Source of the DNA: a phage
Length of the DNA stretch: 64,000 bases
Direction: 5' to 3' (one strand)
Assembly (NCBI GenBank): GCA_012343875.1
Contig: GCA_012343875.1_3924.1
Below are positions 49,971 to 57,883 of this stretch, piece by piece. Each line of letters opens with the position of its first letter. Positions within the stretch are counted from its first letter, which is position 1. The notes beneath the pieces are model-generated. The model searched no databases and had not been told where the DNA came from. It was given only the letters and a program-made list of their open reading frames with translations. The translations under genes were made by a program, and so were the position numbers.

Positions 49971-55354
<5,384 letters not shown>

Positions 55355-55355
<1 letters not shown>

Positions 55356-55594
55356 TACATTTTTCCTGCTCTTCTAAGTTCGTTGTAAGCAATTTCCTCT
55401 TTATACGACCTCTGAATCTCAAGAAATTGTCTCAATGATAATAAATCAGAGAATGTCATAGCAAAGAGTTGGTCAAGTGTTTCTTTACACCCTTCCATAC
55501 CATAAATAGCAAGCACAAATTTCATCTCGTCTGCTTCTTCATAGGTTGCCTCTACAGCAGCATCAGTTAGTGGTGTCTGTAGAGTGTTACCCAT
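55355..55594 (-). CDS. tail assembly chaperone, -1 frame extension (GT-like product)
   Basis: ORF in the -1 frame relative to 55597-55995, open across the overlap and reachable from slippery site U UUU UUC. Confidence 0.5.
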
Positions 55595-55596
55595 GT

Positions 55597-55995
55597 TTAC
55601 TGAGAAGTTAGGCTTTTGAAAATGCTTGCTTCGAAAAAACTTCCGAAGTTTGCCTCCAGCGCAAATGCTAAGTAATCAATAAACTCGCCGTAGTTTGCTT
55701 GGAAGTATGTATCAATATTGAGTGGGAAGTCATCAACAGTTGCCCCTTGAAATAGTAATGTAGCCATTTCTTCAAGGTTAATTTCTTCAATTCTGTCAAA
55801 ACAAGCTTCAACAAGTTCTTTAAATGGAACCATTGGAGCTTCTTTCTTGTCTTTATCAGTCAGACTTGACAGCATCTGTGCAAAGGTTGGAACAACAATT
55901 TTACCCAACTTCATAGACATCTTAATACCATCTCTTGCCCCAAGCAGAACAATATTTACTTTCTTACCATTAATTACTCTAGATTCTGTTTTCAT
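55597..55995 (-). CDS. tail assembly chaperone (G-like)
   Basis: 132 aa between tail tube and tape measure genes; contains slippery heptamer near its 3' end. Confidence 0.55.
   Translation of the reverse strand: MKTESRVINGKKVNIVLLGARDGIKMSMKLGKIVVPTFAQMLSSLTDKDKKEAPMVPFKELVEACFDRIEEINLEEMATLLFQGATVDDFPLNIDTYFQANYGEFIDYLAFALEANFGSFFEASIFKSLTSQ
55633..55639 (-). other. programmed -1 ribosomal frameshift slippery heptamer U UUU UUC
   Basis: Minus strand reads AGU UUU UUC in the zero frame, 36 nt before the stop codon. Confidence 0.55.
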
Positions 55996-56068
55996 TGTGA
56001 TTCCTTAATACTTTTAAAAGAAACAAAAAAGGGGAAGACCTTTTAAAGTCTCCCCCTTATAGGATTTA

Positions 56069-56515
56069 TTAAACACTTGACGCTGGAATTGTAGAAGTGT
56101 AGTCTAGCTTCTCACAACCAAAAATCCAAGTTTTAGAGTTCTGGTCACGACCAAGTTCAATCTGCGGTAATTCCTGCAACCAAGCATTAATACCAGTTGC
56201 CAGAACAGAGCCTGATGGGTCGTAGATTACGAAGTTAGAAGAGATATCTTCTTCAAGTTCCATATTGTCTTGTTTAGCTTGAATTGCAGAAAGCATCTGG
56301 TTAGAGAGAGAAGTCTGCATTAGCTCAATCTCAATAGTACCTGTCTTGTCTGCATTTCTTGTCAGAGCAACTTGACCACCCGCACCTACAACTGGTGTCA
56401 CAAGTGGTGATGTTCTCTGTAGACGTAAGAATGAGTCTGGGGCAAAGCCTTCAATGGCAATACCATTCCAGCTACACACAACGTCTTTAGGGGAATATTG
56501 CTGATACATAGCCAT
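56069..56515 (-). CDS. tail tube protein
   Basis: 148 aa immediately downstream of the sheath-like gene. Confidence 0.5.
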   Translation of the reverse strand: MAMYQQYSPKDVVCSWNGIAIEGFAPDSFLRLQRTSPLVTPVVGAGGQVALTRNADKTGTIEIELMQTSLSNQMLSAIQAKQDNMELEEDISSNFVIYDPSGSVLATGINAWLQELPQIELGRDQNSKTWIFGCEKLDYTSTIPASSV

Positions 56516-56530
56516 TCCAATTTACCTCTA

Positions 56531-57883
56531 TTATTCGTAAGCCACTGTACCTTTCAAGTCAACATCCAAGATAGCTCCTGCTAAGATACCTGAGAAGGTA
56601 ACGTCTTTCAGGATACGTGCTTTCTTGTCTGCTAAAGCAACTTGAGAGGCTTTAGGAACATTAACTGTGTAAGATGACAGGAAGTTTCTGTTGACTGCTC
56701 TTTGCAGAGAGGTTTCAATGACTTGACGAATACGGGTAATACCAGTATCATCATAAGTAATCTTACCACCCTTCTGGTTAATTAGCAAGTCTCTCAGAGA
56801 AGTTTTCAGGTCTGATTCTAACCAGTCAACACCACGGATGATATCAATCCATTCCCCACCAGAAGTAATCCCTCTACGAACCACTGGAACACCACCATCA
56901 AGGTCAATAAAGTTACAGTGACGTGCATCTAAAGCTGACTTCTGAATACTTGTCAGAGGTCTCTGATTAGATGGCTGTAGAGAAGCAGCTACGCCAGTTA
57001 GCTGTGCGTTACCCCAAGCAATTGAACCTGCATCATACGGAGCACCATAAGCAATATAAGCCATTTCTGGATAGTCTTCTGCTGCTGTGTGATGCCACAA
57101 GCAAACTGTACGAGTGTACTTATTCTTAGCAAGTTGTGCTGGAACGTCATTTGCACTGGCTAATTCTGTACCTTGCAGTGCTGCTACATCAGAGTTAGCT
57201 GTAAAGAAAATCTTCTTACGAGCTTGAATCTCAGAAGCCATTGCTAAGACAAACTGTTGAGTTCTGTCTTCTGCTGCAATGAAATACCAGTCAGTTGAAT
57301 AAGCTTCAATAGCTGCCAGAGCAGTCGATGCTGTGTCAGCAGTTGTGCTTGCAATTGACACTGTTTGTGCTGTAGTAGTAACCTTCACGAAGTCATTGTC
57401 GCCAGCTTTGGTGATTACCATTGTTGCTGAACCGCCAGCACCAGTTACATTGACAGTAACAAGGTCTTTTACAGAAGGTTCTGCTTCAATCTGTGTTTTA
57501 AGCTGCTGTAGCACCTTCTCAGCAGTATCTTCTGACTGTGAAGTGTACTGGAATGGCTGAGAAACTCCACCGCTCACAGCTACAGTTAAAGAATAGTCGG
57601 TGCTCTCAGTAACCTCATCAGGAATTGATACAGTGTACTGCATAGCACGTCTACCAATATAAAGCTGAGTTACTTTAGGAGTCTGACTCCAAAGTTGTTT
57701 AGCAGCCTTATATGCAGCAGAGTTTTCATCGAAATCTTCAGCAACTTCAGTTAAGGAAGTGTAACCACGGACTCTTTCTTCAAAGTTATCTGTTGAAGCT
57801 AAAAATAGTGGCAGCCCAAAACCTTCTCTTGTAGTTCCTGCGGTGTTCAATGTAATATCTACATTAACAATTGGATTCCACAT
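56531..57883 (-). CDS. tail sheath protein
   Basis: 450 aa, position upstream of tube/chaperone/tape measure (contractile tail gene order). Confidence 0.5.
   Translation of the reverse strand: MWNPIVNVDITLNTAGTTREGFGLPLFLASTDNFEERVRGYTSLTEVAEDFDENSAAYKAAKQLWSQTPKVTQLYIGRRAMQYTVSIPDEVTESTDYSLTVAVSGGVSQPFQYTSQSEDTAEKVLQQLKTQIEAEPSVKDLVTVNVTGAGGSATMVITKAGDNDFVKVTTTAQTVSIASTTADTASTALAAIEAYSTDWYFIAAEDRTQQFVLAMASEIQARKKIFFTANSDVAALQGTELASANDVPAQLAKNKYTRTVCLWHHTAAEDYPEMAYIAYGAPYDAGSIAWGNAQLTGVAASLQPSNQRPLTSIQKSALDARHCNFIDLDGGVPVVRRGITSGGEWIDIIRGVDWLESDLKTSLRDLLINQKGGKITYDDTGITRIRQVIETSLQRAVNRNFLSSYTVNVPKASQVALADKKARILKDVTFSGILAGAILDVDLKGTVAYE

What the first reader, a model, noticed from the sequence alone, without database searches (positions are those of the whole stretch)
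55355..55995. Canonical -1 programmed frameshift in the tail assembly chaperone
On the minus strand the 132-aa chaperone ORF reads AGU UUU UUC at 55641-55633, 36 nt before its stop. U UUU UUC is a classic X XXY YYZ slippery heptamer. The -1 frame is open from that point through the ATG of the next ORF (55594) to 55355, so slippage would yield a fusion of about 210 aa, the conserved G/GT arrangement upstream of tape measure genes.
Basis: partly seen in the sequence, partly recalled or inferred. Interest (0 to 1): 0.5.

Follow-up and report, generated by a model that had tools for sequence, protein, structure and literature searches.

The report
Known phage tail-chaperone -1 frameshift site
This is the ordinary G/GT-type programmed -1 ribosomal frameshift that lets a Felix O1-like phage make a short and a long tail assembly chaperone from one start codon; it is real and deeply conserved, but it is already annotated in near-identical public phage genomes.

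Summary
On the minus strand, the 132-aa chaperone ORF (55995-55597) reads AGU UUU UUC at 55641-55633. The -1 frame is open from there to 55355, giving a 213-aa fusion. The window is a Felixounavirus, 99.3% identical to E. coli O157 typing phage 1. The gene order is sheath, tube, G, T, tape measure.

Of 71 in-frame X XXY YYZ heptamers in the window, only this one has a -1 frame that runs past the 0-frame stop. The exact heptamer T TTT TTC is in frame in all intact loci examined (46 IMG/VR plus 11 GenBank loci), down to 26-32% protein identity and 57-65% GC. The T frame has no conserved start codon or Shine-Dalgarno (SD) sequence, and it evolves under purifying selection (dN/dS 0.06-0.18).

No stimulatory RNA structure lies downstream. 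A rare GGAGG sits 13 nt upstream, within the known 9-14 nt range for SD stimulators.

Salmonella phage Meda (97% identical) carries a joined CDS "Tape measure chaperone frameshift product" on exactly this span. Citrobacter phages Moogle and Maleficent carry joined chaperone CDSs at the orthologous site. No experimental proof was found. The verdict is confirmed, ordinary and already known.

The parts
55597..55995 (-). G: tail assembly (tape measure) chaperone, 132 aa, the 0-frame product
   Evidence: ORF. Pfam PF21822 Phage_TAC_15, E 1.2e-19, 71.5 bits against a cutoff of 22. phrog_1613 'tail assembly chaperone', E 7.9e-49.
55633..55639 (-). Slippery heptamer U UUU UUC in X XXY YYZ phase (0-frame codons AGU UUU UUC, Ser119-Phe120-Phe121)
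   Evidence: In frame and identical in 46 of 46 IMG/VR loci and in every intact GenBank relative, down to 26% protein identity.
55355..55633 (-). -1 frame extension (T segment): 92 codons plus the stop. The first 13 codons precede the annotated ATG (11 overlap the end of G) and the rest equals the annotated 79-aa ORF.
   Evidence: dN/dS in this frame is 0.18 against Maleficent and 0.06 against mistaenkt. A single-sequence AF2 model gives a disordered linker of about 22 aa followed by a three-helix domain, at low to moderate confidence.
55355..55995 (-). GT: predicted 213-aa frameshift fusion (G residues 1-121 plus 92 residues from the -1 frame)
   Evidence: The same span is annotated as a joined CDS 'Tape measure chaperone frameshift product' in Salmonella phage Meda, 97.0% nt identical.
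55355..55594 (-). 79-aa ORF as usually annotated ('tail assembly chaperone'); probably not an independent gene
   Evidence: phrog_4963, E 2.8e-55. There is no SD core in the 18 nt upstream. The ATG is ATA in locus L025 and is absent in Erwinia, Pectobacterium and the GC-rich relatives.
55653..55657 (-). SD-like GGAGG, 13 nt 5' of the heptamer; a candidate rRNA-pairing stimulator (inferred, not shown)
   Evidence: GGAGG occurs only 13 times on this strand of the window, so the chance of one in the permitted 6-nt range is about 0.001. The known spacing for -1 stimulators is 9-14 nt (PMC5009743). An SD-like core at 13-14 nt is present in 12 of 15 representative lineages; it is lost in Hafnia, Erwinia and CR8.
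53127..55355 (-). Tape measure protein, 742 aa; its ATG overlaps the T stop codon (TAATG)
   Evidence: Pfam TMP_3, E 2.2e-17. phrog_4036, E 0. Sequence.
56069..56515 (-). Tail tube protein, 148 aa, immediately upstream of G
   Evidence: Pfam KPP10_Orf10, E 3.2e-07. phrog_280. The tail sheath (DUF3383, phrog_205) at 56531-57883 lies upstream of it.
56029..56058 (-). Intrinsic terminator-like hairpin (13 bp) plus a U tract, between the tube gene and G
   Evidence: The identical sequence is annotated 'terminator' in phage Meda.

Best explanation
G and T form a lambda G/GT-type (P2 E/E+E'-type) recoding cassette in a Felix O1-like myophage.

Most ribosomes translate G (132 aa) and stop at 55597. 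A small fraction slip. With tRNA-Phe in both the P and A sites on U UUU UUC (55639-55633), they move back one base, re-pair on UUU UUU, and continue in the -1 frame to 55355. This makes the 213-aa GT fusion.

By analogy with lambda, the shared G part binds the tape measure protein and the T part recruits the tail tube protein. The frameshift efficiency then fixes the G:GT ratio needed for tail assembly. This functional step is inferred, not shown here.

The signal appears to be the heptamer, possibly helped by the anti-SD of the translating ribosome pairing with GGAGG 13 nt upstream. There is no 3' RNA structure.
For: Shown by the sequence:
- Phase, open -1 frame and fusion length.
- This is the only one of 71 phased heptamers in the window whose -1 frame passes the 0-frame stop.

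Shown by comparison:
- The heptamer is identical and in frame in 46 of 46 IMG/VR loci and in all intact GenBank relatives. These span Felixouna-, Susp-, Moogle- and Kolesnikvirus, Hafnia and Pectobacterium phages, Vequintavirinae CR8 and GC-rich uncultivated lineages.
- By local codon usage, P(T TTT TTC | Ser-Phe-Phe) is only 0.03-0.15 per lineage.
- In all intact loci the -1 frame stays open for 83-123 codons after the heptamer. In every GenBank relative where the next gene is annotated, it ends at or just before the tape measure gene.
- The T frame has no conserved start codon or SD.
- dN/dS in the T frame is 0.06-0.18.
- The only megablast-detectable DNA similarity to Erwinia phages in the 641 nt is a 41-nt island over the slip site.

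Family and context:
- Pfam Phage_TAC_15 and PHROGs 1613 and 4963.
- Gene order is tube, G, T, tape measure.

Precedents:
- Lambda G/GT, molar ratio 30:1 (PMC5009743).
- P2 E/E+E' slips on TTTTTTG without a hairpin (PMC3091744).
- UUY codons and homogeneous X/Z heptamers are frameshift-prone in E. coli (PMC4066793).
- Joined CDSs are annotated in Meda, Moogle and Maleficent and mentioned in the Moogle and Mijalis genome announcements.
Against: - No experiment on any Felix O1-like phage was found.
- In E. coli reporters, U UUU UUC alone gives only 0.12%, against a background of 0.055%. It gives 0.89% with the IS911 stimulators and 7.6% with the IS3 pseudoknot.
- No 3' structure exists here. The 50 nt downstream fold at -3.2 kcal/mol with z +1.0.
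- The percent-range efficiency seen in lambda is therefore not guaranteed.
- The SD-like GGAGG is encoded by the conserved residues Leu-Glu-Ala and is missing in 3 of 15 lineages, so its role is unproven.
- Sequence alone cannot separate ribosomal slippage from RNA-polymerase slippage, because both give the same protein.
Confidence: 0.88

Rival explanations
1. The same GT protein is made by transcriptional slippage. RNA polymerase adds one extra U on the U6 run, perhaps helped by the small terminator-like hairpin just upstream, and standard translation of the U7 mRNA gives the fusion.
For: A terminator-like motif, CUGGAG-GCAAA-CUUCGG followed by AAG and U6, was flagged at 55659-55633. Hairpin-stimulated slippage is known for a Roseiflexus IS element (PMC5009743). 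One public genome, phage CL1, has T7 at this site, which shows that a one-base insertion gives an in-frame 213-aa product.
Against: Efficient bacterial RNA-polymerase slippage needs runs of about 9 A or T. The Roseiflexus case uses a strong 6-bp all-G:C hairpin directly adjacent to the motif and produces a deletion, not an insertion. Here the hairpin is weak (-6.5 kcal/mol, z -0.5, two G:U pairs) and sits 3 nt from the run. In all intact lineages the run is exactly six T's followed by C and is in X XXY YYZ phase. Ribosomal slippage requires that phase; polymerase slippage does not, and it would favour longer runs.
Confidence: 0.05
2. The 79-aa ORF is an independent gene. It is translated from its own ATG (55594) by termination-reinitiation, two bases after the G stop codon, and no frameshift is needed.
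For: The ATG lies 2 nt after the G stop, a geometry compatible with translational coupling. Most public records annotate it as a separate CDS.
Against: There is no SD core upstream. The ATG is ATA in one close relative (L025), sits elsewhere in Mooglevirus, and has no in-frame equivalent near the G stop in Erwinia, Pectobacterium, CR8 or most GC-rich relatives (L057 has an in-frame ATG 2 nt past its G stop), although the homologous T sequence is conserved where it aligns. This reading explains neither the invariant heptamer nor the always-open -1 overlap of 11-48 codons. It could still coexist with frameshifting in this genus as a minor route.
Confidence: 0.05
3. A chance heptamer next to a chance open frame, or a sequencing error splitting a single gene.
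For: None beyond the fact that in-frame heptamers are common (71 in this window).
Against: This site is the 1-in-71 outlier. It is conserved in all intact related loci at up to about 70% protein divergence. Nearly all of the public genomes listed share the same two-frame arrangement.
Confidence: 0.01

Closest known systems
Annotated 'tape measure chaperone frameshift product' of Salmonella phage Meda (MH586731, Felixounavirus), and the joined chaperone CDSs of Citrobacter phages Moogle (NC_027293) and Maleficent (MH920362)
   Same: Orthologous genes with an identical heptamer and flanks. Meda is 97.0% nt identical over the whole 641 nt, and its joined CDS covers exactly the same span. Moogle and Maleficent have the same architecture at about 80% nt identity over the same span, and a predicted fusion of 212 aa.
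   Different: Nothing of substance. The window's closest records (typing phage 1, wV8, Felix O1) annotate two separate CDSs instead of a joined one.
Bacteriophage lambda G/GT (Levin, Hendrix and Casjens 1993; Xu, Hendrix and Duda 2004, 2013, 2014)
   Same: Two overlapping ORFs between the major tail gene and the tape measure gene. [quoted passage not shown] No 3' structure is required, and neither product is in the virion (PMC5009743).
   Different: Lambda is a siphovirus and slips on G GGA AAG. There was no detectable sequence match to lambda G or T in the searches run here; this protein belongs to Pfam Phage_TAC_15. The G:GT ratio and binding partners are inferred here, not measured.
Bacteriophage P2 E / E+E' (Christie et al. 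2002)
   Same: A contractile-tailed phage with a U6-type heptamer (TTTTTTG) and no downstream hairpin. The site is conserved among relatives with only 49-59% protein identity (PMC3091744).
   Different: The seventh base is G rather than C. The proteins are shorter (91 and 142 aa) and belong to an unrelated chaperone family.
E. coli dnaX and IS911-type -1 frameshift signals
   Same: An internal SD-like sequence 9-14 nt 5' of the heptamer stimulates -1 slippage. Here GGAGG lies 13 nt upstream.
   Different: dnaX and IS911 also use a 3' stem-loop, and none is present here. The role of the SD-like sequence here is untested, and it is not conserved in all lineages.

Membership tests
G/GT-type tail assembly chaperone frameshift (Xu, Hendrix and Duda 2004) | Two ORFs located between the major tail (tube) gene and the tape measure gene | tested here: met
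   Gene order is sheath 56531-57883, tube 56069-56515, G 55597-55995, T 55355-55594, TMP 53127-55355.
G/GT-type tail assembly chaperone frameshift (Xu, Hendrix and Duda 2004) | [quoted passage not shown] | tested here: met
   T TTT TTC at 55639-55633, 11 codons before the G stop. It is the only phased heptamer in the overlap.
G/GT-type tail assembly chaperone frameshift (Xu, Hendrix and Duda 2004) | The second frame lacks its own conserved translation start | tested here: met
   There is no SD before the ATG at 55594. The ATG is lost or absent in L025, Erwinia, Pectobacterium, CR8 and most GC-rich lineages.
G/GT-type tail assembly chaperone frameshift (Xu, Hendrix and Duda 2004) | Slip site and two-frame arrangement conserved among diverged relatives | tested here: met
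   46 of 46 IMG/VR loci and all intact GenBank relatives, down to 26-32% identity. Codon-usage expectation is 0.03-0.15 per lineage.
G/GT-type tail assembly chaperone frameshift (Xu, Hendrix and Duda 2004) | Both G and GT are made at a fixed ratio, and GT is required for tail assembly | not testable with these tools
   This needs protein detection and genetics. No such data were found in the literature searched.
G/GT-type tail assembly chaperone frameshift (Xu, Hendrix and Duda 2004) | The G part binds the tape measure protein and the T part binds the tail tube protein | not testable with these tools
   Inferred from lambda. The single-sequence AF2 models were too poor for any structural test.
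Pfam PF21822 Phage_TAC_15 | Whole-protein score above the curated gathering threshold | tested here: met
   71.5 bits against a cutoff of 22, E 1.2e-19, covering residues 9-124 of 132.
PHROG 1613 (G) and PHROG 4963 (T), 'tail assembly chaperone' | Significant full-length profile match | tested here: met
   E 7.9e-49 over residues 1-132 and E 2.8e-55 over residues 1-79.
dnaX / IS911-type stimulated -1 frameshift | SD-like sequence 9-14 nt 5' of the heptamer | tested here: inconclusive
   GGAGG is present at 13 nt and is rare in the window. But it is encoded by conserved Leu-Glu-Ala and is absent in 3 of 15 lineages, and its function is untested.
dnaX / IS911-type stimulated -1 frameshift | Stable stem-loop or pseudoknot 5-9 nt 3' of the heptamer | tested here: not met
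   The 50-53 nt downstream fold at -3.2 to -3.4 kcal/mol with z about +1. The nearest good hairpin starts 38 nt away and is not conserved in Mooglevirus. No Rfam family matches.
Programmed transcriptional slippage | A homopolymer run of about 9 or more, or a shorter run with a strong adjacent nascent-RNA hairpin | tested here: not met
   The run is exactly 6 in all intact lineages. The upstream hairpin is only -6.5 kcal/mol with z -0.5 and is 3 nt away. The criteria are from PMC5009743.

The most novel reading that the evidence does not exclude
The missing 3' structure may be replaced by a 5' stimulator. Either the GGAGG 13 nt upstream pairs with 16S rRNA, or the strongly conserved nascent peptide FA(L/V)EANFxSFF acts in the exit tunnel. 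Either one would lift the intrinsically weak U UUU UUC (0.12% alone in reporters) to a useful level. This would explain why the 20 nt or so 5' of the slip site, including synonymous positions such as GCA and AAT in 57-65% GC phages, are the most conserved part of the whole Phage_TAC_15 family.
Probability: 0.3. Interest if true: 0.3.

Novelty: already known. Interest (0 to 1): 0.12.

Why it matters
The practical consequence is for annotation. Most Felixounavirus records, including RefSeq entries for wV8, typing phage 1 and EC6, list two separate 'tail assembly chaperone' genes. Some Erwinia and Pectobacterium phage records leave the T segment unannotated. These should carry a joined CDS with ribosomal slippage.

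Biologically it adds nothing new in kind. It is one more instance of the textbook G/GT strategy, here in DUF3383-sheath myophages. The only mildly interesting points are how deeply the exact heptamer T TTT TTC is conserved across the Phage_TAC_15 family, and that in Ounavirinae the site works without any 3' RNA structure.

Tried and rejected
- **Downstream stimulatory structure.** I folded 53, 93 and 141 nt of the window and 50 nt of 14 lineages. Nothing significant lies within 50 nt in any Ounavirinae. The hairpin at 55595-55541 starts 38 nt away and is not kept in Mooglevirus. Only some GC-rich distant relatives have a strong hairpin 3 nt downstream (L051, -30 kcal/mol).
- **Rfam.** A scan of 55200-56200 at E up to 10 gave only sub-threshold hits on the terminator.
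- **Extra synonymous constraint in T.** Third-position diversity in T is low among 13 Felixounavirus genomes (0.012 against 0.05-0.08 in neighbouring genes). Between-genus dS in T (0.63 and 0.95) is in the range of its neighbours, so I treat the low value as a sampling effect.
- **Prophage relatives.** The scan of genome contigs found none.
- **Structural membership test.** Single-sequence AF2 of G gave pLDDT 42 and of T gave 65, too poor for fold searches. A PDB sequence search found nothing.
- **Experimental evidence.** The Felix O1, Felixounavirus and Bas63 literature, the PhageMaP essentiality screen, the Bas63 cryo-EM paper and the Meda announcement yielded none.
- **+1 frame.** It closes after 6 codons, so a +1 shift is excluded.

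Full report
**What is in the sequence**

Read on the minus strand, the window holds an ATG ORF at 55995-55597 (132 aa) and a second ATG ORF at 55594-55355 (79 aa). Codon 119 of the first ORF starts at 55641, so AGT TTT TTC occupies 55641-55633. The heptamer T TTT TTC (55639-55633) is therefore in X XXY YYZ phase.

The -1 frame is open from 55675 to the TAA at 55357-55355, and it runs through the ATG of the second ORF. Slipping at the heptamer gives G residues 1-121 plus 92 residues, a total of 213 aa. The only adjustments are 213 aa rather than 'about 210', and 33 nt between the heptamer and the stop codon (36 nt to the last base of the ORF).

**Is it more than chance?**

All ORFs of at least 100 aa on both strands of the window contain 71 phased X XXY YYZ heptamers. 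The -1 frame after them stays open for a median of 4 codons, with a 95th percentile of 19.5 and a second-best value of 27. The heptamer at 55639 is the only one with 92 open codons. It is also the only one whose -1 frame passes the 0-frame stop.

**What the genome and the genes are**

The region is 99.3% identical to E. coli O157 typing phage 1. It matches 295 records, mainly Felix O1-like phages of Escherichia, Salmonella, Shigella, Citrobacter and Erwinia. The genes on the minus strand are:

| Gene | Coordinates | Evidence |
|---|---|---|
| Tail sheath | 56531-57883 | DUF3383, phrog_205 |
| Tail tube | 56069-56515 | PF11681, phrog_280 |
| G | 55597-55995 | Pfam Phage_TAC_15, E 1.2e-19; phrog_1613 |
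| 79-aa ORF (T) | 55355-55594 | phrog_4963 'tail assembly chaperone', E 2.8e-55 |
| Tape measure protein (TMP) | 53127-55355 | TMP_3, phrog_4036 |

This is the canonical position for a G/GT pair.

**Comparative evidence**

I examined GenBank relatives from Felixounavirus, Suspvirus, Mooglevirus, Kolesnikvirus, a Hafnia phage, a Pectobacterium phage (41-44% identity) and the Vequintavirinae phage CR8 (26%). In every intact one, T TTT TTC is in frame near the end of G. The -1 frame then runs about 100 codons and ends just before the tape measure gene.

A protein-pattern scan of IMG/VR returned 46 loci. All 46 have the same phased heptamer, including lineages of 26-32% identity and 57-65% GC. The scan pattern lay just upstream of the heptamer but did not include it. 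Given local codon usage, the chance of T TTT TTC for Ser-Phe-Phe is 0.03-0.15 per lineage. Retention across about ten deeply diverged lineages is therefore not neutral.

In Erwinia phages, the only megablast-detectable DNA similarity to the 641-nt query is a 41-nt island, window 55650-55610, centred on the slip site.

The fusion proteins align end to end across Ounavirinae, with the T part conserved. dN/dS in the T frame is 0.18 against Maleficent and 0.06 against mistaenkt, so that frame is truly coding.

The T frame has no conserved start:
- In the window, the ATG at 55594 has no SD core upstream.
- One close relative, L025, has ATA there.
- Erwinia, Pectobacterium, CR8 and most GC-rich lineages have no in-frame start near the G stop. 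Several of their records leave the segment unannotated.

The +1 frame closes after 6 codons.

**The signal**

No stimulatory RNA structure follows the heptamer. The 50-53 nt downstream fold at -3.2 to -3.4 kcal/mol with z about +1. The better hairpin at 55595-55541 begins 38 nt away, and its stem is not preserved in Mooglevirus (sequence). Rfam has nothing relevant.

This matches lambda and P2, which need no hairpin. P2 slips on the very similar TTTTTTG. However, in E. coli reporters UUUUUUC alone gives 0.121%, against a background of 0.055%. It gives 0.89% with the IS911 stimulators and 7.6% with the IS3 pseudoknot. Some stimulator may therefore be needed.

A candidate is GGAGG at 55657-55653, 13 nt upstream. 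The published range for -1 SD stimulators is 9-14 nt. GGAGG occurs only 13 times on this strand of the window, so the chance of one in that range is about 0.001. An SD-like core at 13-14 nt is present in 12 of 15 representative lineages. But it is encoded by the conserved Leu-Glu-Ala, and it is lost by synonymous changes in the Hafnia phage. Its role is inferred only.

**Rival explanations**

- **Transcriptional slippage.** This would give the same protein. One record, phage CL1, has T7 and an in-frame 213-aa CDS. A weak terminator-like hairpin precedes the U6 run. But the hairpin is only -6.5 kcal/mol with z -0.5. The run is exactly six in all intact lineages. Known bacterial slippage needs about 9 residues or a strong adjacent hairpin. 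I give this 0.05.
- **Independent translation of the 79-aa ORF by reinitiation.** The geometry in this genus allows it. It cannot explain the relatives without a start codon or the invariant heptamer. I give this 0.05; it could coexist as a minor route.
- **Chance or a sequencing error.** Excluded by the near-uniform two-frame arrangement in the public genomes listed.

**Comparison with what is known, and novelty**

The feature is a member of the G/GT class on every criterion that sequence analysis can test. What remains untestable here is the production and ratio of the two proteins and their binding partners.

It is not new:
- Salmonella phage Meda (Felixounavirus, 97.0% nt identical over the 641 nt, identical slip-site context) carries a joined CDS noted 'Tape measure chaperone frameshift product' on exactly this span.
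- Moogle and Maleficent carry joined CDSs as well.
- The Moogle and Mijalis genome announcements state that the tape measure chaperone has a translational frameshift.

Most other records, including RefSeq wV8 and typing phage 1 and the original Felix O1 entry, annotate two separate genes. I found no experimental demonstration in the Felix O1 or Felixounavirus literature, the Bas63 cryo-EM paper or the Bas63 essentiality screen.

**Verdict**

The mechanism is very probably a -1 ribosomal frameshift (0.88). The feature is ordinary and already annotated in the same genus. Interest is low. What remains open is what, if anything, boosts a weak heptamer in the absence of a 3' structure.

Noticed in passing
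window 56029-56058 (minus strand): A strong intrinsic-terminator-like hairpin (13 bp, AAGGGGGAGAC...GTCTTCCCCTT, followed by TTTTTGTTT) lies between the tail tube gene and G. It probably lowers transcription of the chaperone and tape measure genes relative to sheath and tube. The identical sequence is annotated 'terminator' in phage Meda.
   Followed up: partly
L004 (Escherichia phage CL1, OK040806) 752-800: This record has seven T's instead of six at the slip site, so G and T are fused into one in-frame 213-aa CDS. It is the only such record among the rows listed. It is either a homopolymer sequencing error or a natural mutant that makes only GT.
   Followed up: partly
L011 (Citrobacter phage BSwM KMM4, OP902293) about 640-645: A one-base deletion relative to Maleficent (CAGGGGG to CA-GGGG) truncates the annotated G ORF to 89 aa. 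This is probably a sequencing error in a G run; the slip site itself is intact.
   Followed up: partly
window 55541-55595 (minus strand): A hairpin with a perfect 8-bp stem (CUCUACAG/CUGUAGAG) plus an outer stem lies inside the T coding region and starts at the annotated ATG. The 93-nt fold has z -2.7. It begins 38 nt after the heptamer and is not conserved in Mooglevirus, so it is probably unrelated to frameshifting.
   Followed up: partly
window 55629-55648 (minus strand): The slip site sits inside an imperfect palindrome, CTTCGGAAGTTTTTTCGAAG, which gives an 8-bp hairpin with part of the U run in the stem. Other lineages also show short complementary flanks, but in different registers. The significance is unknown, and the ribosome would melt it while decoding.
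   Followed up: partly
window 55610-55650: This 41-nt island is 92.7% identical to Erwinia Kolesnikvirus phages, whose GT proteins are only about 43% identical. It is the only part of the 641 nt that megablast detects. The conservation is consistent with dual coding plus the recoding signal.
   Followed up: yes
window 55353-55357: The T/GT stop codon and the tape measure start codon overlap (TAATG), with AGGA 8 nt upstream. This suggests translational coupling of the tape measure protein to the few ribosomes that translate the T frame, in addition to direct initiation.
   Followed up: no
L050-L059 (IMG/VR, 57-65% GC): Distant Phage_TAC_15 relatives keep the FA(L/V)EANFxSFF motif and T TTT TTC. 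They have a longer 0-frame tail after the slip (32-48 codons) and a T domain that looks unrelated (IPxHIDWDIWR...DDLYDAHDVLD). Some have a strong hairpin 3 nt after the heptamer (L051, -30.3 kcal/mol).
   Followed up: partly
window 55358-55633 against 13 Felixounavirus genomes: Third-codon-position diversity in the T segment is 0.012, against 0.05-0.08 in the tube gene, G and the TMP. Between-genus dS is not reduced, so this looks like a sampling or recent-sweep effect rather than an overlapping element.
   Followed up: yes
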